In this document: one piece after another, positions 1,951 to 20,000 of the stretch
Position numbering within the stretch: the stretch's first letter is position 1
How the letters are laid out: every line of letters begins with the position of its first letter
Assembly: GCA_014905635.1 (NCBI GenBank)
Contig: JABVCE010000007.1
Span: 1,485,821-1,505,820, forward strand
Direction: 5' to 3'
Origin: Scenedesmus sp. PABB004
Taxonomy: Eukaryota
Length of the DNA stretch: 20,000 nt
Program-made: the position numbers and the translations under genes
The notes under the pieces: generated by a model
Seen by the model: only the letters and a program-made list of their open reading frames with translations
Databases searched by the model: none
Told to the model about the DNA's origin: nothing

Positions 1951-3333
1951 ATGCCGCCGCGCTCCCAGGTGGCCTGCCTGGCGGTGGCCCTGCAGGACCA
2001 CATGAGCGCCCTGCTGGCGCTGCCGGGCGCGCGGCCGCCCGGCAGCGCGCCCGGCGCGGCGCCGTCGCTCGCGCAGCGCCTGGGCCTCGCGCCGGCGCCG
2101 GCGGCGCTGCTGACGCCAGAGCAGTGGGAGGCGGTGCACGCCGGCGCGCGCGCGCGCGCCGACCCGCGCGTCGACGCCTGCGCGGTCTGCCTCGAGCCCT
2201 TTGCCGACTGCGCGACGGCGCAGGCACTGCTCAGCTGCGGGCACGTGTTCCACGCGGCCTGCCTGCGCGCGTTCGAGGCGCACGCGCGGTCCCGCGCCTG
2301 CCCGCTCTGCCGCGCGCCCTGCTACCAGACGCGCGCCATCACCGACGCCGCGGACGCGCGCGCCGCGGCCGCCGCCACGCGCATCCAGGCGGTGGCGCGC
2401 GGCTGGCTGGCGCGGCGGGCGCTCGTCGCGGCGCTCGTGCGGCAGCCGCGGCCGCCGCGCGCACAGCGCCTGCGGCGGCTGTGGGCGGCGGGGCGACTGG
2501 CGGCGGCGGCGGGGGCAGCGCTGGCGGCGGGCGCCGGCGCCGGCGCCGGCGACCTGGACGGCCTGTTTGCGGAGCTGGACGCCAGCCTGGGCGCGAGCAG
2601 GCGCCTGGCCGACCCCGCAGCAGCGCGCGCAGCGGCCGCGGCGGGCAGCGACGGGCAGGCCGCCGGCGGCTGCAAGCCCAACGCGCCCGCACCCCGGGCA
2701 GAGTTGCAGGAACAGCCACGCCACGCAGGCCGGCCAGCTGCCGCTGCGACGCCACCCCGCCGCGGCTGGCCGCAGCGGCGAACGGCCGGCACCAGGCCCG
2801 CAGCAGCTGGCAGTGCGGGCGCTGTCAGCGAGGGGGCACTGCCGGCAATGGCGCCGCCGCGCGCCCCGAGGCACGCGCGAGGACGCAGCCGCGGCGACGC
2901 AGGACCGCCTGTTTCACCTGCCACCGCAGCTGGCGCGGCGGCAGTGGAGCGGGCAGCGGTGGCCCAGGCTGCGCGTGCGGAGCAGCAGCAGCAGCAGCGG
3001 CAGTTTCTCGAGCAGCAGGCGGCAGCGCCCGACGGTTAAGTGGCGCCGCGGCCGCGCCGGCCAGCACCCGGCCTCGCGGCCGACTGGCTGGCCGTGCTCG
3101 CGCACGCCTGCGAGAGCGGCGAGACCGACTGCGCCATATGCCTCGGCGCCCTGGCGGGCCCGCGCGAGGCGGCGGGCGTCGCACTCCTGTCCTGCTCCCA
3201 CGTCCTGCACGCGTGCTGCGTCGCGAGCTTTGAGGCCTTTGAGGCCGGCCGCGGCGGGCAGCCCAGCTGTCCCGTGTGCCGCGCACCGTACGAGCGGCGC
3301 TGCTTTGAGGTGGTGCCCGCGCCTGAAGCGTGA
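1951..3333 (+). CDS. RNF32: RNF32-like protein (RING-H2, IQ motif, RING-H2). In-frame TAA at 3037-3039 is probably intronic or an error
   Basis: gccATG at 1951. Motifs in order: 'ALQDH', 'SLAQRLGL', 'LTPEQW', RING1 CAVC...LLSCGHVFHAACLRAFE...CPLCR, IQ motif 'ATRIQAVARGWLARR', 'LFAELDASL', RING2 CAIC...LLSCSHVLHACCVASFE...CPVCRAPY, then TGA at 3331-3333. This is the RNF32 architecture. Exon structure between ~2610 and ~3070 is uncertain. Confidence 0.85.
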
Positions 3334-3761: not shown

Positions 3762-3856
3762 GGCGCGCGCGCGGGCGGCGCGCGGCCCGCGGCGCGGCGC
3801 GGCCGCCGCCGGCGGCCCTCGGCGGCGCAGCCCGTGGCCGGGCAGCACGTGGGAGC
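3762..3856. repeat. First partial unit of the 171-bp tandem array, left of the hAT insertion
   Basis: Matches array units (ggcgcgcgcgcgggcggcgcgcggcccgc...gggcagcacgtgggagc) and continues in register at 7139 after the transposon and TSD. Confidence 0.95.
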
Positions 3857-3960
3857 CAGTGATTCGTGATACGCGCGTATCGACCCCTTGTATCCAGAAA
3901 TACGCGTACTGATACGGATACGCGTACGGATACGCCAAATACGCCGCCTGATACGTCAGC
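3857..3960. repeat. hAT left TIR and subterminal GATACG/AATACG motif cluster
   Basis: gtgatacgcgcgtatc...aaatacgcgtactgatacggatacgcgtacggatacgccaaatacgccgcctgatacg. These are likely transposase binding sites, by analogy to Ac subterminal repeats. Confidence 0.85.
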
Positions 3961-4101
3961 CCGCCAGGGGCTTTGCATGCTGCTGCGCCGCGGCTGGTCT
4001 GGTAAATTCCACCGATAATTTTGCTGCCCGCGCCGCTCCACGGATAGAAAGACGTTCGCAGAGTGCACTGCGCGCCGCTGCGCGGCCGTTCGCCGGCTGA
4101 A

Positions 4102-6821
4102 ATGTCCGCCCCGGGCCCGGAAGCTGCGGCGGATTGGAGCGCCTCCAACGTCGTCGCCGACCACTTCGAGGTCTGTACGGCGCCTCCAAGGCCTGGTTCG
4201 AGCTCCCACAACAAGACCTACACGTGCAAGTGGTGTTCAACCACCTTCTCAGGCTCCGTCACCCGGGCGCTCGCCCATCTGGCGGGCATTGTGGGCATAG
4301 GCGTCGCGGCGTGCGCGGCGATCTCTGAGGGCGTCAGGAACAAGTTCAAGGCTGAGTGGGCGAGCAAGCAAGCAGCCACGAAGAAGCGCCGTGCACCGCT
4401 CGGCGGTGACGCTCAGCAGCAGCGCAGCACCCCCGCCTGCGCCGGCAGCCCCCCCGGGGGCTCTGGCCACAGCAGCGCCGCCAGCCGGGTCCAGGTGCTG
4501 GTCGAGCGAGAAGCGCCGGCGGGCGGCGCGGGGTGGGGCGGGCGCGTCGCACGCGAGCGCGCCGCACGGCGCCGCGCGGCAGCAGCGCCCACGAGCGCCG
4601 CTGCCCGCCGCCGCTGCCGCAGGGCCCGCTGGAGCGGTCCTTTCAGGTCGCGGAGATCGCCCACGTGAATGCCGCTCTCACGGACTTTCTGTACGCTGAG
4701 GGCCTGCCCCTGCGCCTGGTGAAGAGCCCGTGGCTGCGCGCTTTCGTCAACGCGCTGCAGGGCATGAAAGGCAAGTACACGCTCCCGTCGTACGACAACG
4801 TGAGAACCAGGCATCTGCAAGAGGCCAAGGACCGCGTGGACAAGAAGCTGCAGGCTTGGCAGCAGCGCTGCCCGCAGAGCGGCGTCACCATCTGCAGCGA
4901 TGGTTGGAGCGACCGCCAGGGCAACCCGTTGCTGAATGTTCTTGCTGTCAACCCAAAGGGCGCCAAGTTCATCACCGCTGTCGACACCACCGGCAAGACC
5001 AAGAACGCTGAGTATGTCGCTGGCGTGCTGATGAACGTGATTGAAATGGTGGGGCCTGAGCACGTCGTGCAGGTGCGGGGCGGGGGCGCACGAGCGCCCC
5101 GGCAGCCCGCAACGGCCGAGGTGCAGCGTGACGCATGTGCCCCGCCTTCCCCAGGTGTGCACGGACTGCGCTGCCGTCTGCAAGGCGGCCGGCGTGCTGA
5201 TCATGGCGCGCTGGCCGCACATCACTTGGTCGCCATGCGTGGCGCACGTGTGTGACCTCGCGCTGGAGGACCTCTTTTCCAAGGTGGACTCTTTCAAGGC
5301 CGCCCACGAGGAGAACAAGGCGTTCATCACGTTTGTGAGGTTGGTGGGGGCACGGCGCCGGGGCACGGGAGCAGGTGCGGGCGCGGGCGCCGGCGCCGGC
5401 GCTGCGGCGGCAGCAGCGACCACTGCTCTCTCTCTTTTTCCCGTGTCTGCCCGACTTCCCTAGGAACCACCACAGCACGCTGGCGGCGTGGAAGCAGTTC
5501 AACCACAGCGACGCGACCGGCGCGACCGACGCGGAGCGCAGCGAGCTTCAGCGCACCAACAAGCTGCAGCTGATCAAGCCGGGTGAGACGCGCTTCGCCA
5601 GCGCGCACCTCATGCTGGAGCGCGTGGCGAAGCTCAAGAGCAAGATCAGGCAGTATGTGGTGTCTGAGCACTGGGCCGTTGCCATCAGCAACTTCAAGCC
5701 GGGGGACAAGGTGTGCAGCGGCGGGTTGCAGCACGCGGCTAGGCTGCGCTGTGCAGCCTGTAGCTGGGCTGCTGCCCACGCCCGCCGACACCACCCCGCC
5801 GCTTGCTAGGCTCTCGCCAAGAAGTTCGAGAGCCTTGTCACCAGCGCCAAGTTCTGGGAGCAGGTTGGTCGTGCTCGCCCGCCCACCGCGCGGGCGGCGC
5901 GGGCCCGCCTGGCCCCGCGCCAGACCAACGCCCGCCCTCACTTCGCCCACCGCGTCAGGTGGAGCTGGCTGTGCAGGTGTGCACGCCGATTGTCAAGTTG
6001 CTGCGACTGGCGGACGGCGACGCGCCCAGCGCGAGCAAGATCCACGCCCACGCGTTCTCAGTGCGCGCGCGCGCTCCTAGTGCCCGGGCTGCAGCGCCCG
6101 CCGCGGGCGCGCGCCGCACGCGTGCGCTGGGCGCGCAGCACGCGCTCACAGCGCGTGCGGCGCTGTCCGTGCGCAGGTGAAGAGCTTGCTGCGCGAGATG
6201 GCTGAGCAGTTCAGTTCAGTTCAGCAAGAACAAGAGCCGCCCCTGCTGCGCGCCACTGACTGGGAGCTGGTGCAGAAAATTTGGGACGACCGCTGGGACA
6301 TGATGGACAGCCCCCTGCACGGGGCCGGCTACACCGTCGACCCCGAGTACCTCGGCGACCAGGGGATCCCGGTCGGCAACATCACGGACAAGTGTGTGCG
6401 CGACTGGCACACCATGTGTGAGAAGCTGCTGCCCACCATTGAGGAGCGAACCCAGGCGATGGCGGGGTACATGGCGTTCCGCAACGGCGAGGGGTCGTTT
6501 GGCCAAGACCTGGCCAAGGCCGTCGCGCCCATCACCCCGGCGCACCAGTGGTGGGAAACCTACGGCCAAGCCTGGCCCGAAGCGCAGCGCGTGGCGGTCA
6601 GGGTGCTCTCCCAGGTCGCCTCCGCCAGCTCTTGCGAGCGCGCGTGGTCAGCCTACGACTTCATCCACAACAAGCGGCGCAACAGGCTCACCCCGCAGCG
6701 CGCGCGCGACCTCGTGTACGTGTTCACCAACACGCGCCTGGCCACCAAGATCAGCGCAGAGGGGGGCGAGCAGTTCCACGGCTGGGACGAGGAGGAGGAG
6801 ATGTCGGAGAGCGAGCAGTGA
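4102..6821 (+). CDS. hAT transposase, 691 aa (BED zinc finger, DUF659-type RNase H-like core, C-terminal dimerization domain). Exons 4102-4494, 4623-5072, 5155-5339, 5464-5710, 5810-5863, 5959-6060, 6177-6821
   Basis: Six GT..AG introns (82-128 nt) give one open frame of 2076 nt. Motifs: BED finger (YTCKWC...TRALAHL...C), catalytic D in 'ICSDGWSD', D in 'QVCTDCA', CxxH 'PCVAHVCDL', 'GETRF', 'WWETYG', and catalytic E in 'SASSCERAWS...KRRNRL'. Confidence 0.93.
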
Positions 6822-6944
6822 GCGCCGCCGCACGTCCGGCGCGGCGGGCACGCCGCGCGGCGCGCCGCGCAGCGTGCGCCGCGCAGCGCGCGCAGCGCAG
6901 CGCGTGCAGGTGCTGCACAGAGCCCAGGGGCGGCTGCGAGGCTT

Positions 6945-7016
6945 GGCGGCTGGGCTGGGCGGCTGGGCTCGGCGGCTGGGCGGCTGGGCTGGGCGGCTGG
7001 GCTGGGCGGCGGGCGG
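6945..7016. repeat. Short GGCGGCTGGGCTG-type tandem repeat in the hAT 3' non-coding region
   Basis: ggcggctgggctgggcggctgggctcggcggctgggcggctgggctgggcggctgggctgggcggcgggcgg is directly visible. Confidence 0.8.
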
Positions 7017-7027
7017 TAACAGTGAGA

Positions 7028-7130
7028 CGTATCAGGGCCGTATCGCAGCCGCATCGGACCGGCGGCGGCGTATTTTTCACGTATCGCGTATCGCGTATCG
7101 CGTATCACGTATCACGTATCCAAATCCCTG
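7028..7130. repeat. hAT right subterminal CGTATC cluster, (CGTATC[G/A])n heptamer run and right TIR
   Basis: cgtatcag...cgtatcgc...cacgtatcgcgtatcgcgtatcgcgtatcacgtatcacgtatccaaatccctg. The motifs are inverted relative to the left-end GATACG copies. Confidence 0.88.
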
Positions 7131-9927
7131 GTGGGAGCCCCGCACCCCCACTCCGCAGGGGCGGCGGGGCAGCGGAAACGGCGCACGGCAGCGCTGCGCC
7201 GCGGCGCCGCGAGCGGCGCGCGCGCGGGCGGCGCGCGGCCCGCGGCGCGGCGCGGCCGCCGCCGGCGGCCCTCGGCGGCGCAGCCCGTGGCCGGGCAGCA
7301 CGTGGGAGCCCCGCACCCCCGCTCCGCAGGGGCGGCGGGGCAGCGGAAACGGCGCACGGCAGCGCTGCGCCGCGGCGCCGGCGAGCGGCGCGCGCGCGGG
7401 CGGCGCGCGCTTGCGGCGCGGCGCGGCCGCCGCCGGCGGCCCTCGGCGGCGCAGCCCGTGGCCGGGCAGCACGTGGGAGCCCCGCACCCCCGCTCCGCAG
7501 GGGCGGCGGGCAGCGGAAACGGCGCACGGCAGCGCTGCGTCACGGCGCCGGCGAGCGGCGCGCGCGCGGGCGGCGCGCGGCCCGCGGCGCGGCGCGGCCG
7601 CCGCCGGCGGCCCTCGGCGGCGCAGCCCGTGGCCGGGCAGCACGTGGGAGCCCCGCACCCCCGCTCCGCAGGGGCGGCGGGGCAGCGGAAACGGCGCACG
7701 GCAGCGCTGCGCCGCGGCGCCGGCGAGCGGCGCGCGCGCGGGCGGCGCGCGCTTGCGGCGCGGCGCGGCCGCCGCCGGCGGCCCTCGGCGGCGCAGCCCG
7801 TGGCCGGGCAGCACGTGGGAGCCCCGCACCCCCGCTCCGCAGGGGCGGCGGGGCAGCGGAAACGGCGCACGGCAGCGCTGCGTCACGGCGCCGGCGAGCG
7901 GCGCGCGCGCGGGCGGCTCGCGGCCCGCGGCGCGGCGCGGCCGCCGCCGGCGGCCCTCGGCGGCGCAGCCCGTGGCCGGGCAGCACGTGGGAGCCCCGCA
8001 CCCCCGCTCCGCATGGGCGGCGGGGCAGCGGAAACGGCGCACGGCAGCGCTGCGCCGCGGCGCCGGCGAGCGGCGCGCGCGCGCGGGCGGCGCGCGCTTG
8101 CGGCGCGGCGCGGCCGCCGCCGGCGGCCCTCGGCGGCGCAGCCCGTGGCCGGGCAGCACGTGGGAGCCCCGCACCCCCGCTCCGCAGGGGCGGCGGGGCA
8201 GCGGAAACGGCGCACGGCAGCGCTGCGCCGCGGCGCCGGCGAGCGGCGCGCGCGCGGCGGCGGCGCGCGGCCCGCGGCGCGGCGCGGCCGCCGCCGGCGG
8301 CCCTCGGCGGCGCAGCCCGTGGCGGGCAGCACGTGGGAGCCCCGCACCCCCGCTCCGCAGGGGCGGCGGGGCAGCGGAAACGGCGCACGGCAGCGCTGCG
8401 CCGCGGCGCCGGCGAGCGGCGCGCGCGCGGGCGGCGCGCGCTTGCGGCGCGGCGCGGCCGCCGCCGGCGGCCCTCGGCGGCGCAGCCCGTGGCCGGGCAG
8501 CACGTGGCAGCCCCGCACCCCCGCTCCGCAGGGGCGGCGGGGCAGCGGAAACGGCGCACGGCAGCGCTGCGCCACGGCGCCGGCGAGCGGCGCGCGCGCG
8601 GGCGGCTCGCGGCCCGCGGCGCGGCGCGGCCGCCGCCGGCGGCCCTCGGCGGCGCAGCCCGTGGCCGGGCAGCACGTGGGAGCCCCGCACCCCCGCTCCG
8701 CAGGGGCGGCGGGGCAGCGGAAACGGCGCACGGCAGCGCTGCGCCACGGCGCCGGCGAGCGGCGCGCGCGCGGGCGGCTCGCGGCCCGCGGCGCGGCGCG
8801 GCCGCCGCCGGCGGCCCTCGGCGGCGCAGCCCGTGGCCGGGCAGCACGTGGGAGCCCCGCACCCCCGCTCCGCAGGGGCGGCGGGGCAGCGGAAACGGCG
8901 CACGGCAGCGCTGCGCCGCGGCGCCGGCGAGCGGCGCGCGCGCGGGCGGCGCGCGCTTGCGGCGCGGCGCGGCCGCCGCCGGCGGCCCTCGGCGGCGCAG
9001 CCCGTGGCCGGGCAGCACGTGGGAGCCCCGCACCCCCGCTCCGCAGGGGCGGCGGGGCAGCGGAAACGGCGCACGGCAGCGCTGCGCCGCGGCGCCGGCG
9101 AGCGGCGCGCGCGCGGGCGGCGCGCGCTTGCGGCGCGGCGCGGCCGCCGCCGGCGGCCCTCGGCGGCGCAGCCCGTGGCCGGGCAGCACGTGGCAGCCCC
9201 GCACCCCCGCTCCGCAGGGGCGGCGGGGCAGCGGAAACGGCGCACGGCAGCGCTGCGCCACGGCGCCGGCGAGCGGCGCGCGCGCGGGCGGCTCGCGGCC
9301 CGCGGCGCGGCGCGGCCGCCGCCGGCGGCCCTCGGCGGCGCAGCCCGTGGCCGGGCAGCACGTGGGAGCCCCGCACCCCCGCTCCGCAGGGGCGGCGGGG
9401 CAGCGGAAACGGCGCACGGCAGCGCTGCGCCACGGCGCCGGCGAGCGGCGCGCGCGCGGGCGGCTCGCGGCCCGCGGCGCGGCGCGGCCGCCGCCGGCGG
9501 CCCTCGGCGGCGCAGCCCGTGGCCGGGCAGCACGTGGGAGCCCCGCACCCCCGCTCCGCAGGGGCGGCGGGGCAGCGGAAACGGCGCACGGCAGCGCTGC
9601 GCCGCGGCGCCGGCGAGCGGCGCGCGCGCGGGCGGCGCGCGCTTGCGGCGCGGCGCGGCCGCCGCCGGCGGCCCTCGGCGGCGCAGCCCGTGGCCGGGCA
9701 GCACGTGGCAGCCCCGCACCCCCGCTCCGCAGGGGCGGCGGGGCAGCGGAAACGGCGCACGGCAGCGCTGCGCCACGGCGCCGGCGAGCGGCGCGCGCGC
9801 GGGCGGCTCGCGGCCCGCGGCGCGGCGCGGCCGCCGCCGGCGGCCCTCGGCGGCGCAGCCCGTGGCCGGGCAGCACGTGGGAGCCCCGCACCCCCGCTCC
9901 GCAGGGGCGGCGGGGCAGCGGAAACGG
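7131..9927. repeat. GC-rich tandem satellite-like array, 171-173 bp unit, ~16.3 copies (plus ~0.5 copy left of the hAT)
   Basis: Anchor GTGG(G/C)AGC recurs at 7131, 7302, 7473, 7644, 7815, 7987, 8160, 8333, 8504, 8676, 8848, 9019, 9190, 9362, 9534, 9705 and 9877. Units are nearly identical, with two main variants (cgcggcccgc versus cgcgcttgc). Confidence 0.98.
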
Positions 9928-9929
9928 GG

Positions 9930-10222
9930 TTTCTCAGGGGTTTTTGCAGCAAAGCCAACTGATGCCCCCTGGTGTGTGCGTGTGTCGTCGCGCGGCGCGG
10001 GGGCTGATGCCGCTGAGGCCGGCCCCTGCCGCCGCCAGCGTGGATGGCGTTTGCGCGTGATCTCTGCGCGGAGGCTTGGCGCCGGTGCACCTCGCTGCAC
10101 CGATGCCCGGTGCGGCTCGCCGCACCGGAAGGGGGGTGTGCGGCCTGATCTGCTGCTGCCCCTTTGATTGCGGGGCATCACCTGGTCTCCTTGGGCGCCC
10201 GTTGGGCGTTGGCCTCTGGCTG
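9930..10222 (+). mobile_element. L1-family 3'-UTR fragment (~293 bp) in sense orientation
   Basis: Reverse complement of 10388-10680 and 12006-12298, with about 4-5 substitutions. It lacks its own last ~140 nt and poly(A). Confidence 0.92.
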
Positions 10223-10963
10223 TTTTTTTTTTTTTTTTTTTTTTGGTTACAATGGGTGACCAGACAAGGACCGAGGCCCAGGGGCAGCCCACTGAAAAAA
10301 GCTCCAACGGGAAGAGCGCAGCAACCCCTCGTGAAAAACCGCGCCCCGGCGCCCCCCGAGAGGGGGCCCACACATCACCCAACGGCACAGCCAGAGGCCA
10401 ACGCCCAACGGGCGCCCAAGGAGACCAGGTGATGCCCCGCAATCAAAGGGGCAGCAGCAGATCAGGCCGCACACCCCCCTTCCGGTGCGGCGAGCCGCAC
10501 CGGGCCTCGGTGCAGCGAGGTGCACCGGCCCCAAGCCTCCGCGCGGAGATCACGCGCAAACGCCATCCACGCTGGCGGCGGCAGGGGCCGGCCTCAGCGG
10601 CATCAGCCCCCGCGCCGCGCGACGACACACGCACACACCAGGGGGCAGCAGTTGGCTTTGTTGCAAAAACCCCTGAGAAAGCCGCGCACCGATGAGAAAG
10701 CCGCCCCACCGGGCAGGCAGCACGCCAAGCCGCCGCGCACGGAGCGCGTGCAGCCGCCAAAACACGCCGGCGGCGCCAGGGGCCGGCCCATCGGCTGCAG
10801 CCCCCTCGCCGCGCGACGACCAACACGCAGACACCAGCCCCGCGGCACGGGCGGACACCGCCCAACCTTGCACGCTGCAGAAGAAGCGCGACACGCAGCC
10901 AGCCGGGGTCGCAGCAAGCCCGGCCGCGGACCCCCCGGCCCCTGCAGCTAGCCGCCGCGCTGT

Positions 10964-10995
<32 letters not shown>

Positions 10996-11839
10996 GGTCC
11001 TGCGCCGCCGCGGGGCCAGCGCCGGCGCCGCCGGCAGCGCCGGCACGCCCGCTGCGGTGAGCCGGAACTCCATTGTGAAGCGGCCCCCGTGCTGGCCCGT
11101 GCGCGCGATGACCCCTCGGTGGCACCACCGGCGTTCGAAATCTGCCTGAGTGAGCTCCTTGCCGGAGCCCGACAGCCAGGAGCGCGGCACGCCCGCCAGC
11201 GCGCGCACGTCCATCGCTGCCTTGCGCCAGTCCAGCACGACTGCGTCGCGCACCGAGTACACAAAGATGCGAATCGCCGCCACAGGCGCGTGCCCGGGCT
11301 GGCCGCCGCCGTGCCGCGCGCGCGCGGCGAGCAGGGCGCGCAGCAGCAGCAGGCGGAGGTGCGTCCAGAGCTGCTGCAGCTCCGGCGCGACGCCCGACCT
11401 GGCAAAGTCGTCCGCCAGCATCACCCTGGGCGGGGGCGGCGCGCGCGGGAAGCCCGGCTGCAGCCGCGCCCAGAGGTGAGCAAACCACTGCAGCACCGCC
11501 GCCGCCACGGGGCATCCGCCGAGGACGTGGCCGAGCGTCTCCAGCGGCGGCTGCTGCTGTGCGCGGCAGAGCGGGTGCGGGCACGCCAGCTCCGCCAGCT
11601 CCGGCGCCGCGCGCTGGTAAGAGAAGACCCTGTCGCCGCTGACGCGCACCCCGCCGTGCAGCAGGCTCCAGCCAAAGTGTCGCAGGCGCGCGCGCGGCAT
11701 GCGCGCCTGCTGCGCGCGCGCGTAGCAGGCGGCCCAGGCGGGCGGCTCCGCGCGCTCGCCGGCGCGCAGCGGCGCAGTCGCACCAGTGAGCGGGTCGACG
11801 AGGTCGTTGGCCGCCGGCTCCTGAACCAGGGTCCTGCGC
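10223..11839 (-). mobile_element. L1-clade LINE copy A: 3' 1.6 kb (ORF2 C-terminus, ~700-nt 3' UTR, poly(A))
   Basis: Poly-T22 at 10223-10244 and TTACA (TGTAA on - strand) at 10247-10251. Near-identical to 11843-13455 at an offset of ~1617 bp. Homology ends at gtcctgcgc (11839), followed by 'acc' and the next poly-T. Confidence 0.95.
10948..11839 (-). pseudogene. C-terminal fragment of L1 ORF2 (zf-RVT/CCHC region), frame open to TAG
   Basis: RRTLVQEP...RLRHFGWSLLHGGV...ELACPHPLC...LETLGHVLGGCPVA...W...FERRWC...QRGG*. No start codon. Confidence 0.85.
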
Positions 11840-12566
11840 ACCTTTTTTTTTTTTTTTTTTTTTGTTACAATGGGTGACCAGACAAGGACCGAGGCCCAGG
11901 GGCAGCCCACTGAAAAAAGCTCCAACGGGAAGAGCGCAGCAACCCCTCGTGAAAAACCGCGCCCCGGCGCCCCCCGAGAGGGGGCCCACACATCACCCAA
12001 CGGCACAGCCAGAGGCCAACGCCCAACGGGCGCCCAAGGAGACCAGGTGATGCCCCGCAATCAAAGGGGCAGCAGCAGATCAGGCCGCACACCCCCCTTC
12101 CGGTGCGGCGAGCCGCACCGGGCCTCGGTGCAGCGAGGTGCACCGGCCCCAAGCCTCCGCGCGGAGATCACGCGCAAACGCCATCCACGCTGGCGGCGGC
12201 AGGGGCCGGCCTCAGCGGCATCAGCCCCCGCGCCGCGCGACGACACACGCACACACCAGGGGGCAGCAGTTGGCTTTGCTGCAAAAACCCCTGAGAAAGC
12301 CGCGCACCGATGAGAAAGCCGCCCCACCGGGCAGGCAGCACGCCAAGCCGCCGCGCACGGAGCGCGTGCAGCCGCCAAACACGCCGGCGGCGCCAGGGGC
12401 CGGCCCCATCGGCTGCAGCCCCCTCGCCGCGCGACGACCAACACGCAGACACCAGCCCCGCGGCACGGGCGGACACCGCCCAACCTTGCACGCTGCAGAA
12501 GAAGCGCGACACGCAGCCAGCCGGGGTCGCAGCAAGCCCGGCCGCGGACCCCCCCGGCCCCTGCAG

Positions 12567-12582
12567 CTAGCCGCCGCGCTGT

Positions 12583-12613
<31 letters not shown>

Positions 12614-15600
12614 GGGTCCTGCGCCGCCGGCGGGGCCAGCGCCGGCGCCGCCGGCAGCGCCGGCACGCCCGCTGCGGTGAGCCGGAACTCCATTGTGAAG
12701 CGGCCCCCGTGCTGGCCCGTGCGCGCGATGACCCCTCGGTGGCACCACCGGCGTTCGAAATCTGCCTGAGTGAGCTCCTTGCCGGAGCCCGACAGCCAGG
12801 AGCGCGGCACGCCCGCCAGCGCGCGCACGTCCATCGCTGCCTTGCGCCAGTCCAGCACGACTGCGTCGCGCACCGAGTACACAAAGATGCGAATCGCCGC
12901 CACAGGCGCGTGCCCGGGCTGGCCGCCGCCGTGCGCGCGCGCGCGGCGAGCAGGGCGCGCAGCAGCAGCAGGCGGAGGTGCGTCCAGAGCTGCTGCAGCT
13001 CCGGCGCGACGCCCGACCTGGCAAAGTCGTCCGCCAGCATCACCCTGGGCGGGGGCGGCGCGCGCGGGAAGCCCGGCTGCAGCCGCGCCCAGAGGTGAGC
13101 AAACCACTGCAGCACCGCCGCCGCCACGGGGCAGCCGCCGAGGACGTGGCCGAGCGTCTCCAGCGGCGGCTGCTGCTGCGCGCGGCAGAGCGGGTGCGGG
13201 CACGCCAGCTCCGCCAGCTCCGGCGCCGCGCGCTGGTAAGAGAAGACCCTGTCGCCGCTGACGCGCACCCCGCCGTGCAGCAGGCTCCAGCCAAAGTGTC
13301 GCAGGGCGCGCGGCATGCGCGCCTGCTGCGCGCGCGCGTAGCAGGCGGCCCAGGCGGGCGGCTCCGCGCGCTCGCCGGCGCGCGGCGGCGCAGTCGCACC
13401 AGTGAGCGGGTCGACGAGGTCGTTGGCCGCCGGCTCCTGAACCAGGGTCCTGCGCTGCTCCAGCTGCTGCTCCCGCCGCTGCTCATGCTCCTCGCGCCGC
13501 GCCGCGGCGGCAGCGGCCGCCGCCGGCCCGACGCGCTCCATGACGTGGCGCCGCGGGGGCGAGACTTTCTGCCACGCCGGCAGCCCAGGCTCCGGGTCTG
13601 GCGTCTCGGCCCGCTGCCGCTCCGCCCAGCTGCGCTTCTGGCCCGCCTCCCGCCGCGCGATGGCGCTGGCCGGGCATGCCTGGCCGTAGCCGGCGCGCCA
13701 GAGGCCCGGCACGCAGCCAACGCCGGGCGTCCAGCCCCTGCCGGCGTGACCTCGCGCGCGCAGCGCAGCTGCAGCAGCCGCAGGGTCGCGCCGCGCACCG
13801 TAAACTGCATGACCGTGGCCGCGTGCCCGAGCCCCCACACGGAGGGGTCGACGCGGACGTCAGGCCAGAAGCCCACGAGGAACCATCGCCGCGCCCTGCT
13901 GTGCATCTCCGGCTGCTCCGCCGGCGCCGCTGCCGCCGGGCGCTCCGGCCGCCGCGCGCTGCGCGCGCGCCGCTGGCCGCGGCGCCTGCGCCGCGTCCAC
14001 CACGCAGCAGTCCTCCCACCCCCCCGCCGCGACTATCTCGGGCGGGGGCTCGGCGGTGCGGAGCCTGCTGTCAGGCCCCACCTCGAAGAAGCTCGCCGCT
14101 GCCGCGCCCAGCGCCCCCGCCGTACCCACCGCACACGGCAGCGGGCGGCGGCGGCGGCGGCTGCGCGGCTGCTCCACCGGCAGCGCCGCCAGCGGCTGCT
14201 GGGGCTGCTGCACCACGCCGCCGCCCGGCGACGGCGGCGCCGCGCTGGGCCGCAGCGCCTGCCAACCCGGCGCGCTCGGCCCGCTGCGCGCGAGCGCCTG
14301 CTGCCACTCACCCGGCATGACGACGCCGTCGGCGGCCGGCCGCCCCGGCAGGCGCGGCGCCGCCTGCCCGAGGCTGTCGCTGCGCAGCTCCGCGGGCAGG
14401 TCCTCGAGCGACGCGATGCGCGCGCCGCCCAGGGCCGCGCCGACGCTGCAGTTGCCCACCAGGGCCTCCACCCTGATCTGCTCCACGGTCATGCTGCCGT
14501 GGGGGATCACCCGGTGCACGCCGAGAGCCGCAAACGCGCAGGCGATCGCGCCCCACCGCCACGGCAGCTGCGCCCGCAGCTCCAGCGCGGTGCCCTGCAC
14601 GAGGGCGGCGGTGCCCCGGCCAGGCAGCGCGCGCGCGAAGCGCGCCGCCGCGGGTGGCTTCCAGGCCGCCCCCACCGGGTGCAGCAGCCTGGCGGCCGTC
14701 TTGGCCAGCATTGCCGTGGTGAAGGCCGCGACGTCGACCTGCGCCTCGCCGCCCATGCTCGCGGGCAGGCACGCGATGGCCGCCCGCGGAACCTGCCTGA
14801 TAATGCGGTTGTCGCTCTCGCGGATGCACCAGTTGCCGACGATGTAGGCGGTGACGCGCCGCTGGATGAGGCGCAGGAGGTCGGCCGGCACCGGCACAAA
14901 CTGCGCGTGCCAGCCCACGCAGGCCGCGAGCACCTGGCGCGCAACGTGCCGGCGGCCCGGGCGCGTGAGCGCGTACCGCGACCAGTGCGCGATGCGGCAG
15001 GTGATGGTGCGCAGCCGCTCGCGGTAAAGCTGCGCCGCGTGCCGCTCGACGCCGGTGGCAGAGAGCAGCACGCCCAGGTGCCTGATCGGCGCCTGCTCTG
15101 TGTCCGGGAAGCACACGCCCGTGCTGCACTCGACCAGCTGCCCGCTGCCATCCGGCTGCAGCTGCAGCGCCGGGTGGTCGCCCAGCAGCATGCCCTTGCA
15201 CTTGGCCAGGTTGAGCTGCGCGCCGCTGGCCAGGCAGAACGGCGCGACGGCGCCGTCCAGCAGCCGCTTGGCGCTCTCCACTGACGCTGCGTGCAGGGTG
15301 GTGTCGTCTGCGTGCTGGTGGCAGCAGGGCGCCGGCCCTGCGCCGCCGGGCAGCTGCAGGCTGGCAAAACCGGGCTGCCGCTGCACGCGCCGGCACATGG
15401 CCGCCAGCGGCTGCGCCGCCAGCACATACAGCAGCGGGCTGAGCGGGCTGCCCTGCGCGCAGCCCGACGCCACGCTGAACTCGCGGCTGACATGGCCGCC
15501 GTTGAAGGCGACGCGCGCCCGCGTGCCTGCGAGCAGCAGGCGGACCCAGCGCGTGGTTGCGTCGGGCAGGCCCATGCGCGCGAGGCACCTGAACAGCCAG

Positions 15601-17582
15601 CCGCGGTCGAGGCGGTCGTAGGCCTTGGCAAAGTCGAGGAACAGCAGGCAGCCCGGCGCGCGCGTCTCGCGCGCGCGTGTCGATCGCCTCCAGGTGCATG
15701 AGCACGTTGTCGGCGATGTCCCGGCCCGGCACAAACGCCGTCTGCGTGCCGTCGACGATGGAGCCGAGCGCGGGCGCGAGCCGCTGCACGATGGCCTTGG
15801 CTGCGATCTTGGTGTCTGTGTTGAGCAGCGTGATGGGGCGGTAGCTGCTGACCGCCTCGCGCGGCTGGCCGCCCTTGTGGATCAGCGTGATGAGCCCGAG
15901 CCGCTGCGTCGCCGCGAGCTGCGGCGCGCCGGCTGCCTGGTTGAGGTAGTGATAGTTGAAGGCTTGGACGAGCGGCTCGCCCAGCACCTCCCACAGGGCC
16001 GCGTAGGCCTCGCAGGTGAGGCCGTCGCTGCCCGGCGCCGCGCCGCGCGGCAGGCTGGCCAGCGCCGCCGTCGCCTCGGCGAACGTGAGCAGCCCCTCGG
16101 GGTCCTGCCCGCGGCAGGCCCGCTGCTCGGCTGCCGAGAGCTGCGGTCCAGCGCGTCCAGCATGCAGTCCTGCTGCTGCTGGTCGGTCGGCCGGACGCCG
16201 AACATGCCGCCCGGCACGTCCGCGTCGAAGAAGTCGGCGATGATGCGGCCGCCCTCCTGGATGCCTGCCCTGGAGGTAAGCGGCACGGCGGGCTGGCCCG
16301 GGCGGGCGAGCGCGTGAATTGGCTGCGCGCCGCCCGGCGCGCGGCCCAGGCGGTGGAACCAGCGGCTGGGCCCCTCGCCGCACTCTCCCATACCGCCTCC
16401 AGAGCGTCCGCCTGCTGCCGCGCCGTCGCCGCCTCCGCCGCGGCGAGCCCGCTCTGCGGCGAGGGCGTTAGCGGCGGCCTCGGGGCAGCCGTACTGCTGG
16501 CTGCCTGCCGCCCAGCGCGCTGCGCGCAGCGCGTGCCGCAGCTGGTGGAGCTCCTGCTGCTCCTGCTGCCGCATCTCCGCACGCAGCTCCGCCGCGATGC
16601 GCCGCACACTCTGTTTGAGCTGCTCAAACAGCTCGCCCGGGTCCAGCCCTGCGTCCCGCAGCTGCTGCGCGGCAGCTGCTACACGGTCGCGGAGCTCGGC
16701 CCGGCGGCTGGCGCAGGCGAGCAGGTCGTTGGGGAACGTCCAGCGTCGCCGCCCAGCCAGCGGCTGTCCCGGCCGCTGCAGGCTGACGCTGACCGGCCTG
16801 TGGTCGCTGTGGCACAGCGGGTGGTGCGCCGCACCGACCAGCCAGTGGTCGGCGAGCTCCTGCGCCACAAACCACGCGTCGATGCGGCCACCGTGCACCG
16901 CCCCGTCGCGCCGCTGGTAGTGCGTGGGCTGCGCGCGGAGCTGCGGCGCCACGCGCAGCAGCGCGTCGACGACGCCCGCCGCCGCGTTGGCGCGGGCGAG
17001 GTCCGCGCCGCCGTGGCACCTGCCAGACCGCGCCGCCGCCTGCCCCGGCAGGGGCTGGACGTCAGCGGCGAGACGACGCAGTTGAAGTCGCCGCCCGCCA
17101 GCAGCAGCGCGCCCCCGCCGGCCCTGCCAGGAGGGCCTCCTGGTACGGCCCGCGAAGAACGCAGGGCGCTCTGCCCGCTCGGACGGCGCGTAAACGCCCA
17201 GCACCGAGAGGCGGTCGCCATGCTGCGTGCGCCAGCCCACGCGCAGCAGCCTACCTACAGTGTCGCAGTACTCGATACTCGGCGCCTCCCCAGCGGGCAC
17301 GACGCCATCGCGGATCAGGATGCCCACGCCCCGCGACGCTGAGCTGAGCTGCCGTGGCTCCACCATGCTGAACCCTGCCATGGCCGGCCGGGGCCGGCCC
17401 CGCCTTGGACCCACCTGCGGGCCTGGCCGTCGCCCTGCGCGTGCGTCTCTGTGAGGACGACCACGTGGTAGCGGAGGCCAGGAGCCAGGCGAAGAACGCC
17501 TGTCGGCTGGGCTTGTGGTTGAGGCCGTTCACGTTGACGGCCACCACCTTGAGCCCCCCCAGGCCGCGCTCGCGCGCGACAT
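12567..17582 (-). CDS. L1 ORF2: AP endonuclease, reverse transcriptase and C-terminal CCHC/zf-RVT; broken by multiple frameshifts in this sequence
   Basis: APE motifs: LKVVAVNVNGL, VVLTETH, RGVGILI, VLGVYAPS, LAGGDFNCV, RIDAWFV, HSDHRPV. RT motifs: APGSDGLT, YRPITLLNTDTKI, QTAFVPGRDIADNV, LDFAKAYDRLD, GCAQGSPLSPLLY, QHADD (HADD at 15314-15303), RHLGV. C-terminal CPHPLC...ETLGHVLGGC. The motifs are spread over several ORF-track frames. The ATG at 17582 needs one more G in the G7 run to join the APE frame. Confidence 0.9.
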
Positions 17583-17599
17583 GGCTACTGCGGCTGCCC

Positions 17600-19742
17600 G
17601 CGGCGCCGCCGCGGGCTCGCGGGCGACTCGCCCGCCTGCCAGCCGGGGGCGAAGCCGCGGTTCGCCTCGCTCCAGGTGCCCAGCCCCGGCCGCTGTGAGC
17701 GCCTCGGGCCGCCCGCGGCGGCCTCCGCGGCGACCTCGTTGCCCCGCTGCCCCGGCGCGCTGCGCGCGCGCGCTGCGGCGCGCTCGCCGCCGCCGCCGGC
17801 GCGCGCGCGCCGCCGCACCAGTCCGGGCTGCGCGAGCGCGCCGCCACCGGCGCGCCGGCGCTCGCGCGCCGGCGCGACGCGCTGCGCGAGCGCTCCGCGG
17901 CGGCGCGCGCCGCCGCCGCCAGCCCGCTCGCACCGCCGCGCCGCCGCGCCGCGTGGCCGGAGCTCTCCGCGGCGTCGCCTGCCGCCGCCGCTGACGCGCC
18001 AGCGCCGCCCTGCTGCCGCGGCACGCTGCGCGGGCGTGCCGCGGGGGGCGCGCGCCGCCGCCGCGGCGGCGCGGCGTCGGCTGCCGTCCGCACCAGCGGG
18101 CCGCGCGCTGCCGCGGGGCTGGCCTCGGCCCCCGCCGCCGCCGCTGCCGCCTCCGCCGCCGCCGACTGCGCCGCGCAAGCCGGCCCGGCCTCGGCGCGCG
18201 CCGCCGCGGCGGCACCGGGCCCAGGCCCGCCCTCGTCGTCCGTGCCGTACCCTGCGTCTGGCGGCAGGCCGAAACGGCGGCGCAGCCACGCGCGCCGCGC
18301 GGGCCAGGCGCACGCACCGCCGACGGGGTCCGGCAGGCTCTGTCGCATGGCCGCCCAGTACTCCTCGCGCAGCCGCTCGCAGTCGCTGCCGCCCAGGTCG
18401 CCGCCGCCCCATTCCTCGCAGGCGCTCCTGGCCGCAGCGATCAGGTCGTCCGCGTCCGGCCCGTCACACCAGGCCCGGAACGCGGTGCTGCGTGCCGTGC
18501 TGCCCCCTGCGGTGCGCTGCTCGCGCGGCGCCGCGCCGCGCCGCGCGCCCGCGCGCCGCGGTGGCCGCGCCGCGCGCCGCCGCGCCCCCTCGCCGCGGGC
18601 GGGCGGGCTGCCAGCGGGCTGCTCCCCACCGCCGCCGTCTGCGTCCACCTGCATCGGGTCGCACCCGCCGGGCAGCGTCCCGGCGCCGGGCAGCTGCGTC
18701 GCGGCCGCCGCTGCCGCGGGCTCCGACGCGGCCGCTCGTCCAGCTCCATCGCCGCCGGCCCGATCCTTGCCGCCGCGTCGCCGGCACCGCCGCCGGGCAG
18801 GTCCTGCGGCTGCCGCTGCTGCTGCCGCTGCTGACCCTGCTCCATCGCCGCGGGGCGGCCCCTGGCCGCCTCGCCCGCGGCGCCCGCGCCGCGCCGCCGG
18901 CTCGCGCGCCGCCAGCGCGCGCCGCACCTGCGCCCGGCACGCCCTGCGCGGGCGGCGGCGCCACGGGGGCGCGGGCGCGCGGGCCTGCGCACGCTGCGGC
19001 GCAGCCTCGGCCCCTCCGCGTCCGCCTCCAGCCGCGCCAGCGCCCGCTCGTAGGTCTGCTCGCTCGCACGCCAGCCGCGCCACTCGCGCCCGCGCGGCCG
19101 GCGACGTAGACGCGCACGCGCCGGCCGTCGGACACAAAGTCGTCTGGCAGGCGCTGAGCATGGCTCGCGCGCCGGCGGCGTCCGCACGTACGCGACGAGC
19201 GTGTCCGCGCAGGGCAGCGCCGCCGGCGCGTCGCCGAACGCGCTGCTGCAGCCCCAGTGCTCGGACACCGCCGAGGTCAGGGCCGTAACCCGCGGCGACC
19301 AGCAGGGCGGCCATGACGCCCTGGCCGCGCTCCCACAGGTCCTCCGCAGCCCCTGCACCAGCACCTTGACGGTGCCGGCCGGCGCGGCCGTCCTGCCCCA
19401 TGCCGCCGCACCGCGCAGCCGCCGAGCTCAGCACGCCCGCGGCGCGACCGCAGCCGCCGCGGCGGCGACTGCTCGTCCGGCTTGACGCGCGATCGCGACG
19501 GTGGCCCCGGGGGTGCGCTGCCCGTCGCGGCGCACGTGGTGTAGCCGGCCGCCAGGGGAGCGGCTGCCCGCCCTGCACCAGCAGCTGCCCGAGCTGCGCG
19601 ACGCCGCGCACGCCCGCCTGGAAGTGCGCGGCGCGGCTCGCCTCCCGCTGCGCGCGCCGTGCGGCCGGAAGGCTGCACGGCCTGCCCCAGCGAGAGCACG
19701 ACCGCGCGCCGGGTCGCCGCCCGGCCCGAGAGCCGGCGCCAT
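17600..19742 (-). CDS. Putative L1 ORF1 (frameshifted; boundaries approximate)
   Basis: Lies directly upstream of ORF2 on the same strand. Protein-like segments occur in shifting frames (AAHFQAGVRGVAQLGQLLV; GVMAALLVAAGYG; ADTLVAYVRTPP; DGRRVRVYVAGR; FRAWCDGPDADDLIAAARSACEEW...LREEYWAAM...WLRRRFGL). Candidate ATG at 19742. Confidence 0.55.
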
Positions 19743-20000
19743 GGGATGGGCGCCCGCTGCGGCGGTCCCGCAGCAGCCGGGCCGGGGCAGGAGCCAGACG
19801 GGGCCCGAGGGGCCCGCAACGGCCCCCTCCGGGCCGGCCGACAGGGCCCCGCGGCCCCACGGGCCAGCGCGGGGCCGCCCGCTGCTGCCCGTCGCCGGGG
19901 GGCGCCGCCAAAGCCGGGCTGCGCCGGCCGGCGCGCCCCCGCGCCCAGAAAGCCCGCCCCGCGGCCAAACTGGGCCGCGGGCAGGCCCGCGGGCGCCTGC

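What the first reader, a model, noticed from the sequence alone, without database searches (positions are those of the whole stretch)
9930..20000. Self-nested L1 cluster: each poly(A) tail abuts another copy of the same LINE family (Zepp-like self-targeting)
Seen: three pieces of one L1 family abut with no host DNA between them. Copy B's poly(A) joins copy A inside ORF2 (11839/11843, 3 extra nt 'acc'). Copy A's poly(A) joins an oppositely oriented 3'-UTR fragment at 10222. Neither junction resembles a canonical TTTT/AA L1 target. Known: Zepp of Chlorella/Coccomyxa inserts into pre-existing Zepp copies, and Zepp-like L1 clusters mark Chlamydomonas centromeres. Inference: this family targets itself or this chromatin domain, with insertion order fragment, then A, then B.
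Basis: partly seen in the sequence, partly recalled or inferred. Interest (0 to 1): 0.8.

Follow-up and report, generated by a model that had tools for sequence, protein, structure and literature searches.

The report
Stacked L1 retrotransposons inside algal satellite
Three pieces of one L1-type jumping gene sit directly against each other inside a 171-bp satellite of a very GC-rich Scenedesmus-like green alga, a local example of the transposon pile-ups already known from other green algae.

Summary
A 297-nt sense fragment of the L1 3'UTR (F, about 9927-10222) abuts the poly(T) of an antisense, 5'-truncated copy (A, 10223-11839). A abuts 'ACC' and then the poly(T) of a copy longer than 8 kb (B, 11843 to at least 19756). 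A and B are 99.1% alike. F is 98% alike and inverted. The stack lies in a 171-bp, 88% GC satellite that also holds a hAT transposon.

The element is an APE plus RT LINE. Its closest named proteins are from Scenedesmus sp. PABB004 (up to 97% identity). The next named relative is a multi-chromosome Chlamydomonas family, probably ZeppL, at 35%, and it falls in a sister clade.

PABB004 gene models show the family on 11 contigs. It again sits beside the satellite, beside inverted L1 pieces and beside Copia elements.

Repeated insertion into a transposon island is therefore supported. Recognition of the element's own sequence is not shown, because unrelated transposons share the islands.

The order of A and B is unresolved. 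B nested in A's ORF2, A added at B's tail, a template jump and a local duplication all give the same map. The deciding sequence lies beyond base 20000 and no genome was held.

This is a new member of a known kind, of moderate interest.

The parts
3762..3856 (.). Left remnant of the 171-bp satellite, cut off from the main array by the hAT insertion
   Evidence: 96-nt match at 96-100% identity to 16 satellite copies; sequence read
3857..7130 (+). hAT DNA transposon inserted in the satellite (context, not part of the L1 stack)
   Evidence: DUF659 (E 2.9e-23) and hAT dimerisation domain (E 5.1e-10). 8-bp target duplication GTGGGAGC at 3849-3856 and 7131-7138, with CAG... terminal inverted repeats
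7131..9927 (.). 171-bp satellite array: 16.3 copies, 97% matches, about 88% G+C
   Evidence: Tandem Repeats Finder, period 171, score 5250; composition
9928..10222 (+). F: 5'-truncated fragment of the L1 3'UTR, sense on the + strand. It covers about 440 to 140 nt before the tail. Its left edge is uncertain by about 2 nt.
   Evidence: Inverted repeat with A and B, 297 nt at 98%; 5-6 substitutions and no indels
10223..10244 (-). Poly(A) tail of copy A, read as T22 on the + strand. It joins F with no added bases.
10245..10947 (-). 3'UTR of copy A
   Evidence: Lies between the tail and the ORF2 stop at 10948-10950
10948..11839 (-). Last ~890 nt of ORF2 of copy A, ending at A's 5' break point
   Evidence: Open frame 10948..12060(-); 99% identity to B; matched by PABB004 L1 proteins at up to 99%
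11840..11842 (.). Three bases (ACC on +, GGT in the sense of the element) that belong to neither copy
11843..11863 (-). Poly(A) tail of copy B, read as T21 on the + strand
11864..12566 (-). 3'UTR of copy B (about 700 nt), holding two ~110-nt direct repeats about 80% alike
   Evidence: ORF2 stop at 12567-12569; repeat family D4
12567..17559 (-). ORF2 of copy B: endonuclease about 16802-17535, reverse transcriptase 15069-15879, C-terminal part with a CPHPLC motif. As assembled it has several frame breaks.
   Evidence: RVT_1 hits split over two frames. Endonuclease placed by homology to P0206, whose residues 12-255 are Exo_endo_phos. Frame breaks seen as separate tblastn pieces. Metagenome contigs lack the extra base at 15678 in 4 of 4 runs.
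17560..19756 (-). Upstream part of copy B, probably ORF1, with a start codon at 19740-19742
   Evidence: Matched by N-terminal parts of PABB004 models P0300, P0305, P0208 and P0301; peptides MAPALGPGG at 19716-19742 and RAPIP at 19742-19756
19757..20000 (.). Unassigned: either the 5'UTR of B or the flank beyond B
   Evidence: The tested stretch 19743-20000, which contains this part, scores no better than shuffled sequence against the satellite, the expected rest of A, the expected rest of F, the rest of B or the left 7 kb

Best explanation
The stretch is a small transposon island built inside a 171-bp satellite array.

Mechanism. One L1-type LINE family (APE endonuclease plus reverse transcriptase, about 700-nt 3'UTR, tail of about 21 A) has integrated here several times by target-primed reverse transcription. 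Each later copy landed in or against an earlier one.

Order of events.
- F went in first. It was a 5'-truncated copy in the + orientation, set directly into the satellite.
- An antisense copy then primed on the + strand inside F's 3'UTR, at ...CTGGCTG^T.
A entered F and was then split in its ORF2 by the near full-length B (about 0.4).
- A added at B's tail (about 0.25) and one-event models (about 0.2) remain open.

Why the copies pile up. I think this is a property of the region and not of the element recognising itself. The satellite island either attracts insertions or is one of the few places in a compact, gene-dense genome where insertions survive. I put this at about 0.55, against about 0.2 for self-recognition.

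Shown: the anatomy, the family's identity, and its recurrence beside satellite, L1 and Copia at other loci.

Inferred: the mechanism, the order of events and the cause of clustering.
For: Anatomy and junctions.

LINE identity:
- RVT_1 in B.
- Exo_endo_phos plus RVT_1 in relatives up to 97% identical.

F is independent:
- It differs from B at 5 of 297 positions. A and B differ at 1 position in that stretch and at 4 substitutions over 1.6 kb.
- Two of F's variants (equivalents of 12124 and 12163) are the letters that metagenome contigs carry.

- P0305 reads Copia pol end, then about four satellite monomers, then L1 truncated near 16590, then a satellite piece, then L1 from about 19756.
- P0207 reads an S1-domain host gene, then an L1 3' part, then a 13-residue exon from an inverted 3'UTR, then L1 from about 15981.
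- On both contigs that carry two L1 models, the accession numbers are 1 and 4 apart.
- Copia lies beside L1 on 5 of the 11 contigs. Two cases are fused gene models and three are neighbouring accessions.
- One metagenome contig joins L1 position 13913 to the satellite.

Region-level cause: a hAT element with its own 8-bp target duplication sits in the same array.

For the order A then B:
- Craig et al. 2021 (PMC8226300, passages read) summarise Zepp clusters as nested insertion into existing copies, which gives tandem arrays made mostly of 3' ends. This stack has that layout.
- In the intact copy, both poly(T) junctions are followed by TGC, which holds for 3.1% of positions.
- At the 4 A/B substitutions, B carries the letter of F or of the metagenome contigs at 3, so A has more private changes.
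Against: - The deciding sequence is missing. No genome is held.
- The last 258 nt of the window match neither the rest of A nor the rest of F. If B's true 5' end is near 19756, where P0305's second copy meets satellite, both nesting predictions would fail inside the window.
- Three extra bases at a poly(A)-target junction are unusual for target-primed reverse transcription, and the F/A junction has none. This favours reading ACC as filler at A's 5' end.
- The two tails are almost the same length (22 and 21), as a local duplication would predict.
- 3 private substitutions against 0 is not significant (one-sided 0.125).
- The shared TGC was noticed after the fact.
- Evidence from other loci rests on predicted gene models. 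Their introns hide the real junctions and distances. Reading accession order as gene order is my assumption.
- Two L1 copies are fused to host genes (P0207 with an S1 domain; P0209 with UDPGP and a 2OG oxygenase). The islands are therefore not isolated from genes.
- No read or contig was seen to span 10222 or 11842.
Confidence: 0.6

Rival explanations
1. Tail addition. B entered F first. Later a typical 5'-truncated copy (A) integrated into B's poly(A) tail, which is the only T-rich primer site around. ACC is filler at A's 5' junction, and any target duplication is hidden in the tail.
For: - The window has no TTTTAA or TTAAAA, and the two tails are its only A/T runs of 8 nt or more.
- A is a 1.6-kb 3' piece, the usual product of 5' truncation. 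Gene models suggest 5' ends at many positions in the family.
- Extra bases are commoner at L1 5' junctions than at 3' junctions (recalled knowledge of mammalian L1).
- This model needs only one insertion at a site that is not T-rich, instead of two.
Against: - The F junction shows the family can prime at a G+C-rich internal site, so a need for T-rich targets is not established.
- A carries more private substitutions than B.
- No other tail-to-body junction of the family could be read base by base.
Confidence: 0.25
2. One event for A and B. Either the reverse transcriptase copied a truncated RNA, added three untemplated bases and jumped to the tail of a second RNA. Or the 3' 1.6 kb was duplicated locally after insertion. 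Only one true nesting (into F) then took place.
For: - The tails are nearly equal (T22 and T21).
- There is 99.1% identity with only 4 substitutions.
- A few untemplated bases at end-to-end template jumps are known for R2 and L1 reverse transcriptases (recalled).
Against: - A and B differ at 4 substitutions and about 10 indels. One A variant (equivalent of 13134) recurs in a metagenome contig that otherwise follows B, which suggests separate sources.
- There is no homology between the tail and the ORF2 break point that could drive unequal exchange.
Confidence: 0.15
3. True self-recognition. The family's endonuclease cuts defined sequences that occur in its own body, roughly GC-N-N^TGC, and perhaps in the satellite. 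Copies therefore home to copies.
For: - Both poly(T) junctions precede TGC in the intact copy, with GC at -4/-3.
- Two independent L1 5' junctions (F here, and the first copy in P0305) fall within about 5 nt of the same point of the satellite monomer (after AAACGG), in opposite orientation. Two others (the second copy in P0305 and the metagenome contig) lie about 7 nt apart.
Against: - GC..TGC occurs 95 times on the + strand of this window alone, and GCGCTGC occurs 36 and 48 times on the two strands. Such a site cannot explain the clustering.
- hAT and Copia elements, which integrate by other means, share the islands.
- The junction phases come partly from protein models and are uncertain by a few bases.
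- The sample is four junctions and the pattern was noticed after the fact.
Confidence: 0.15
4. Assembly artefact. The stack is a mis-join of reads from several copies of the repeat.
For: - Most A/B differences are 1-base indels in G+C runs.
- B carries frame breaks that metagenome contigs lack: 15678 in 4 of 4 runs, and 13734 and 17338 in 3 of the 4 runs laid, all that cover those places. This suggests a noisy consensus.
- No contig bridges the junctions.
Against: - Both junctions are unique sequences. One has three extra bases, which assemblers do not invent.
- A, B and F each carry private substitutions.
- Similar mixed arrangements appear in independent gene models.
Confidence: 0.05

Closest known systems
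Zepp LINEs of Chlorella vulgaris C-169 / Coccomyxa subellipsoidea
   Same: - An L1-type LINE found as clusters of nested, mostly 5'-truncated copies with poly(A) tails.
- Clusters are G+C-rich peaks.
- Arrays consist mostly of 3' ends.
- Sources: Blanc 2012, PMC3446292, passages read; Craig 2021, PMC8226300, passages read.
   Different: - Blanc et al. found no tandem satellite in or near Zepp clusters. Here the stack lies inside a satellite.
- The host is a chlorophycean alga, not a trebouxiophyte.
- No Zepp sequence was available, so kinship is untested.
- One cluster per chromosome is untested.
- The primary Zepp papers (Higashiyama 1997, Yamamoto 2003) were not held.
ZeppL-1_cRei (L1-1_CR) of Chlamydomonas reinhardtii, the CENH3-associated centromeric L1
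   Same: - The nearest named relative outside Scenedesmus.
- 35% identity over 918 residues from endonuclease to beyond the RT, plus a colinear C-terminal CPHP.C region.
- About 8 kb long (preprint 10.1101/2025.03.28.645958, passages read), compared with at least 7.9 kb for B.
- Forms localised clusters mixed with other transposons (PMC9940879, passages read).
   Different: - That the Chlamydomonas proteins I used are ZeppL is inferred. The grounds are their gene models on 10 chromosomes and three unplaced scaffolds and the papers' description. No call showed it directly.
- In my tree the Scenedesmus family lies in a sister clade (SH-aLRT 90), not inside the Chlamydomonas clade (99).
- Satellite is not a major component of ZeppL clusters.
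- The partners there are Dualen LINEs. Here they are Copia and hAT.
Copia-type centromeres of Chromochloris zofingiensis (Sphaeropleales)
   Same: The host order is the same as that of the closest named relative. Copia elements lie beside this L1 family on 5 of 11 PABB004 contigs.
   Different: Those centromeres are reported as Copia, not L1 (cited in PMC8226300 and PMC11005252, passages read). No centromere evidence exists for the present locus.
Site-specific L1-clade LINEs of the Tx1 group (recalled from memory: Tx1L in Tx1D, and elements aimed at snRNA genes or microsatellites)
   Same: A LINE recurrently found in one repeated target. Two pairs of satellite junctions lie close together within the monomer.
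   Different: - The name 'transposon TX1' on the PABB004 proteins is an automatic best-hit label.
- No conserved target site is shown.
- The family also lies in L1 bodies and beside host genes.

Membership tests
L1-type (APE-bearing, poly(A)-tailed) non-LTR retrotransposon | Reverse transcriptase domain of the non-LTR type | tested here: met
   RVT_1 at E 5.7e-17 and 4e-06, in two frames of B
L1-type (APE-bearing, poly(A)-tailed) non-LTR retrotransposon | APE-type endonuclease upstream of the RT in the same ORF | tested here: met
   B's own frames gave no Pfam hit. P0206 and P0305 carry Exo_endo_phos plus RVT_1. P0206 is 97% identical to the RT-region query, and its residues 4-492 (endonuclease and what follows) map to B at 17559-16092.
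L1-type (APE-bearing, poly(A)-tailed) non-LTR retrotransposon | 3' poly(A) tail and variable 5' truncation | tested here: met
   Tails of 22 and 21 nt. A is truncated at 11839 and F in the 3'UTR. Gene models start at many positions.
L1-type (APE-bearing, poly(A)-tailed) non-LTR retrotransposon | Target-site duplications flanking each copy | not testable with these tools
   No copy has both ends in the window, and no genome is held
Zepp / ZeppL lineage (sensu Craig et al. 2021) | Groups with Zepp and ZeppL, apart from other chlorophyte L1 families, in an EN+RT tree | tested here: inconclusive
   The only Chlamydomonas proteins found with the element are one multi-chromosome family, probably ZeppL. 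In the tree of 64 rows the two are sister clades. No Zepp or other curated chlorophyte L1 sequence could be included.
Zepp / ZeppL lineage (sensu Craig et al. 2021) | Copies occur as nested or tandem clusters | tested here: met
   The window stack. P0207 and P0305 each hold two copies. On the 2 contigs with two L1 models, the models lie 1 and 4 accessions apart.
Zepp / ZeppL lineage (sensu Craig et al. 2021) | One cluster per chromosome, at the centromere, and absent elsewhere | not testable with these tools
   No genome, no chromosome map and no CENH3 data. Two copies are fused to host-gene models.
Sequence-specific LINE | The same target sequence at independent insertions | tested here: inconclusive
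   Four L1/satellite 5' junctions fall at two places in the monomer. Only two 3' junctions are readable, and both precede TGC. The sample is too small and partly at protein level.

The most novel reading that the evidence does not exclude
In this very GC-rich Scenedesmus lineage, a relative of ZeppL homes to defined positions of a 171-bp satellite and to its own copies. Together with Copia elements it builds the centromeres. These islands would then combine the L1-type centromere of Chlamydomonas, the Copia-type centromere of Chromochloris and a satellite component. That would argue that L1 residence at centromeres is ancestral in Chlorophyceae.
Probability: 0.2. Interest if true: 0.65.

Novelty: new member of a known kind. 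Interest (0 to 1): 0.4.

Why it matters
Craig et al. 2021 asked whether Zepp-like L1 clusters mark centromeres in many green algae, or were recruited independently in Coccomyxa and Chlamydomonas. They noted that the one Sphaeropleales species studied uses Copia instead.

This is a related L1 that stacks on itself, inside a satellite and beside Copia, in a Scenedesmus-like alga. The closest named relative has a genome reported as 39.8 Mb, 78.5% G+C and 1.31% repeats (PMC12571836). Such a genome has few repeat islands, which makes it an easy place to test the question by CENH3 mapping.

My searches found no paper that describes centromeres or L1 clusters in Scenedesmaceae (passages read).

The locus also offers readable junctions for working out how such stacks grow.

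Tried and rejected
Searches and tools that gave nothing:
- Whole genome: none is held, so nothing past 20000 could be read.
- Earlier notes of this scan: empty by place, by sequence and by words.
- Metagenome pattern scan with the L1 3' end: 2 loci, both chance matches in an AT-rich, apparently bacterial gene.
- Sequencing runs: 17 rows, best share 0.21, all freshwater or other metagenomes. No RNA holder is listed.
  - Contigs hold the L1 at up to 99% or more.
  - None bridges 10222 or 11842.
  - Depth was not used to rank parts.
- Search of 1.8 billion representatives with the UTR-plus-lysine-run peptide, meant to catch ORFs that read through other tails: 2 low-complexity hits.
- Genome contigs: a pattern scan found 0, and a protein scan confirmed none of 18 candidates.
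- ESM Atlas: only generic non-LTR RT clusters.
- First tree attempt: the alignment timed out. I redid it on BLAST-trimmed RT regions, leaving out 3 fragmentary Chlamydomonas rows.
- Papers: Higashiyama 1997 and Yamamoto 2003 are not held. The supplement of Craig 2021 is unreadable, so its repeat library and gene-to-TE table, which could name the Chlamydomonas proteins, were not seen. A search for the three Chlamydomonas gene ids found one unrelated paper.

Ideas rejected:
- Twin priming. The inverted piece lies on the tail side, not at the 5' end, and F is 1.7-2.0% diverged against 0.25% substitutions between A and B.
- 3' transduction of F. No tail follows F; the satellite follows it directly.
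- The 11 bases at the metagenome L1/satellite joint as filler. They match the satellite at 9 of 11, so the joint simply lies at about 9839.
- The shared start of P0207's inverted-UTR exon and F's end as a shared break point. The exon merely starts after a CAG acceptor.

Full report
WHAT IS THERE

The window is 77.5% G+C. Reading the + strand, it holds the following, in order:
- A RING-finger host gene at about 1693-3039.
- A 95-nt remnant of a 171-bp satellite at 3762-3856.
- A 3.3-kb hAT transposon at 3857-7130. It has DUF659 and hAT-dimerisation domains and an 8-bp target duplication, GTGGGAGC.
- The main satellite array at 7131-9927, with 16.3 copies at 97% matches and about 88% G+C.

F (about 9927-10222) is a 297-nt piece of the L1 3'UTR in sense on the + strand. 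A (10223-11839) is an antisense copy made of T22, a roughly 700-nt 3'UTR and the last 890 nt or so of ORF2. Three bases, ACC, follow at 11840-11842. B then starts with T21 at 11843 and runs antisense to at least 19756.

A and B align over 1,619 nt at 99.07%. They differ by 4 substitutions and 12 indel columns. F is the inverted match of both at 98%, with 6 and 5 substitutions and no indels.

The two tails are the only A or T runs of 8 nt or more in 20 kb, and the window contains no TTTTAA or TTAAAA.

WHAT THE ELEMENT IS

B carries RVT_1, split over two frames. Its closest proteins are gene models of Scenedesmus sp. PABB004, with RT-region identity up to 97%. Several of them carry Exo_endo_phos plus RVT_1. 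The element is therefore an APE-type, poly(A)-tailed LINE of the L1 kind.

B is not intact as assembled. PABB004 proteins map to it in at least seven pieces in different frames. Freshwater metagenome contigs that hold the family at 99% or more lack B's extra base at 15678 in 4 of 4 runs. At 12933, 13734 and 17338 they differ by indels in 3 of the 4 runs laid. Whether this reflects decay or a noisy assembly cannot be told.

The PABB004 genome is reported as 39.8 Mb, 78.5% G+C and 1.31% repeats (PMC12571836, table passage read). This fits the window's composition. I did not establish that the window is from that strain.

RELATIVES

The only Chlamydomonas proteins found with the element belong to one family. 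That family has gene models on 10 chromosomes (3, 4, 5, 6, 7, 8, 9, 12, 14 and 16) and on three unplaced scaffolds.

This matches what is written about ZeppL-1_cRei. It is described as the L1 behind the reverse-transcriptase ORFs at all mapped centromeres, and as the only ZeppL family in that species (PMC8226300 and PMC9940879, passages read). The identification is my inference. The supplement that could confirm it was unreadable.

A near-complete PABB004 model (P0300) and a Chlamydomonas ORF2 (P0099) share 35% identity over 918 residues. They also share a colinear C-terminal region with a CPHP.C motif.

I built a quick maximum-likelihood tree of 64 RT regions with 487 columns, leaving out 3 fragmentary Chlamydomonas rows. 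The Scenedesmus family sits in a 37-row clade (SH-aLRT 90). This clade is sister to a 21-row clade holding the Chlamydomonas family (99), and the two are joined at 91 against distant outgroups.

No Zepp sequence and no other curated chlorophyte L1 could be included. Membership of the Zepp/ZeppL lineage is therefore open.

OTHER LOCI, SEEN THROUGH GENE MODELS

With no genome to search, I used the PABB004 proteins as a window on other loci.

- P0305 (38-kb contig) reads, in one direction: the end of a Copia pol, about four monomers of a diverged version of the same satellite, an L1 truncated near 16590 and joined through a CGC microhomology, a further 13-residue satellite piece, and a second L1 starting about 15 nt before the ORF1 start codon.
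- P0207 (1.27-Mb contig) reads: an S1-domain host gene, an L1 3' part, a 13-residue exon identical to the translation of an inverted 3'UTR piece (10181-10219 on the minus strand), and an L1 from about 15981.
- Copia proteins lie beside L1 on 5 of the 11 contigs. Two cases are fused models (P0301, P0305) and three have neighbouring accession numbers. Reading accession order as gene order is my assumption.
- One metagenome contig joins L1 position 13913 to the satellite at about 9839.

The family thus recurs beside this satellite family, beside inverted copies of itself and beside Copia. Introns in these models hide the real junctions, so they show neighbourhood and not base-level structure.

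HOW THE STACK AROSE

F must be first, for two reasons. It is interrupted. It also comes from another source lineage, because two of its five differences from B are the letters carried by metagenome contigs.

The F/poly(T) junction has no extra bases and at most 1 nt of overlap. It looks like target-primed reverse transcription from a + strand nick at ...CTGGCTG^T, which is not a T-rich site.

For A and B, four models give the same map:
- (ii) A, 5'-truncated, integrated into B's tail.
- (iii) A template jump from a truncated RNA to the tail of a second RNA, adding three bases.
- (iv) A local duplication of the 3' 1.6 kb.

Evidence for (i):
- The layout is the one Craig et al. summarise for Zepp.
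- Both poly(T) junctions precede TGC in the intact copy, against a 3.1% base rate.
- A has three private substitutions to B's none.

Evidence for (ii) to (iv):
- The three extra bases sit oddly at a 3' junction but naturally at a 5' end.
- The tails are the only T-rich tracts.
- The two tails are almost equal in length.

I put (i) at about 0.4, (ii) at about 0.25 and (iii) plus (iv) at about 0.2.

The test is the sequence beyond B's 5' end. The last 258 nt of the window match none of the candidates, so they are either B's 5'UTR or something the nesting models do not predict.

WHY THE COPIES PILE UP

I favour the region.

A hAT element and Copia elements use unrelated integration machinery, yet they share the same satellite islands. 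In a compact genome with about 1.3% repeats, insertions may also simply survive only there.

Against pure region effects, there is a lead worth following. F's left flank ends after AAACGG of the monomer. The first P0305 copy's flank starts within about 5 nt of the same point, in opposite orientation. The other two satellite junctions lie about 7 nt apart. With four junctions, partly at protein resolution, this is only a lead.

COMPARISON AND VERDICT

The behaviour matches Zepp and ZeppL, namely clusters of nested or tandem 5'-truncated L1 copies. It differs from them in three ways:
- It lies inside a satellite. Blanc et al. found none near Zepp clusters, and satellite is minor in ZeppL clusters.
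- Its partners are Copia and hAT.
- Its host lineage is different.

Searches found no description of centromeres or L1 clusters in Scenedesmaceae. A 2026 survey of 38 genomes reports LINE-dominated repeats and does not use the word centromere.

I rate it a new member of a known kind, of moderate interest. Its main value is as a tractable place to test whether L1 residence at centromeres is widespread in Chlorophyceae.

Noticed in passing
window 3857-7130: A 3.3-kb hAT DNA transposon inserted in the satellite. It has DUF659 and a hAT dimerisation domain, CAG... terminal inverted repeats and an 8-bp target duplication, GTGGGAGC. At about 68% G+C it stands out against its 88% G+C surroundings.
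   Followed up: partly
window 3762-3856 and 7131-9927: A 171-bp satellite (also scored as a 343-bp dimer) of about 88% G+C. It starts about 0.7 kb past the RING-finger frame (1693-3039). A diverged version of it is read through in the PABB004 gene model P0305, so the satellite family occurs at more than one locus.
   Followed up: partly
window 9922-9927, compared with P0305 residues about 520-530: Two independent L1 5' junctions fall within about 5 nt of the same point of the satellite monomer (after AAACGG), in opposite orientations. Two further junctions (P0305's second copy at about 9846 and a metagenome contig at about 9839) lie about 7 nt apart.
   Followed up: partly
window 1693-3039 (+): An open frame with a RING finger (zf-RING_2, E 8e-09) and an IQ motif, probably a host gene next to the island.
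   Followed up: no
window 10531-10837 and 12149-12455: The L1 3'UTR contains two direct repeats of about 110 nt, 194 nt apart and about 80% alike.
   Followed up: no
proteins P0206, P0207, P0209, P0301, P0305 (Scenedesmus sp. PABB004): These public gene models are chimeras. They fuse host genes (S1 domain, UDPGP, 2OG oxygenase), Copia pol, translated satellite and one or two L1 copies into single proteins of 1,857-4,173 residues. They also cause Copia and L1 proteins to fall into one 90% cluster.
   Followed up: partly
window 12933, 13734, 15678, 16385, 16420, 17338: Copy B differs by small indels from the version of the family in freshwater metagenome contigs. At 15678 all 4 runs lack B's extra base. 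B is either decayed or the assembly has indel errors.
   Followed up: partly
window 9850-20000, runs X1-X3 and X5: Contigs of several freshwater metagenomes carry this L1 family at 99% or more over stretches of up to 1.3 kb. The alga or a very close relative therefore occurs in such waters.
   Followed up: no
window 19743-20000: The last 258 nt match nothing else in the window. In P0305 the homologous L1 start (about 19756) is preceded by satellite, so the family's true 5' end may lie just upstream of the ORF1 start codon.
   Followed up: partly
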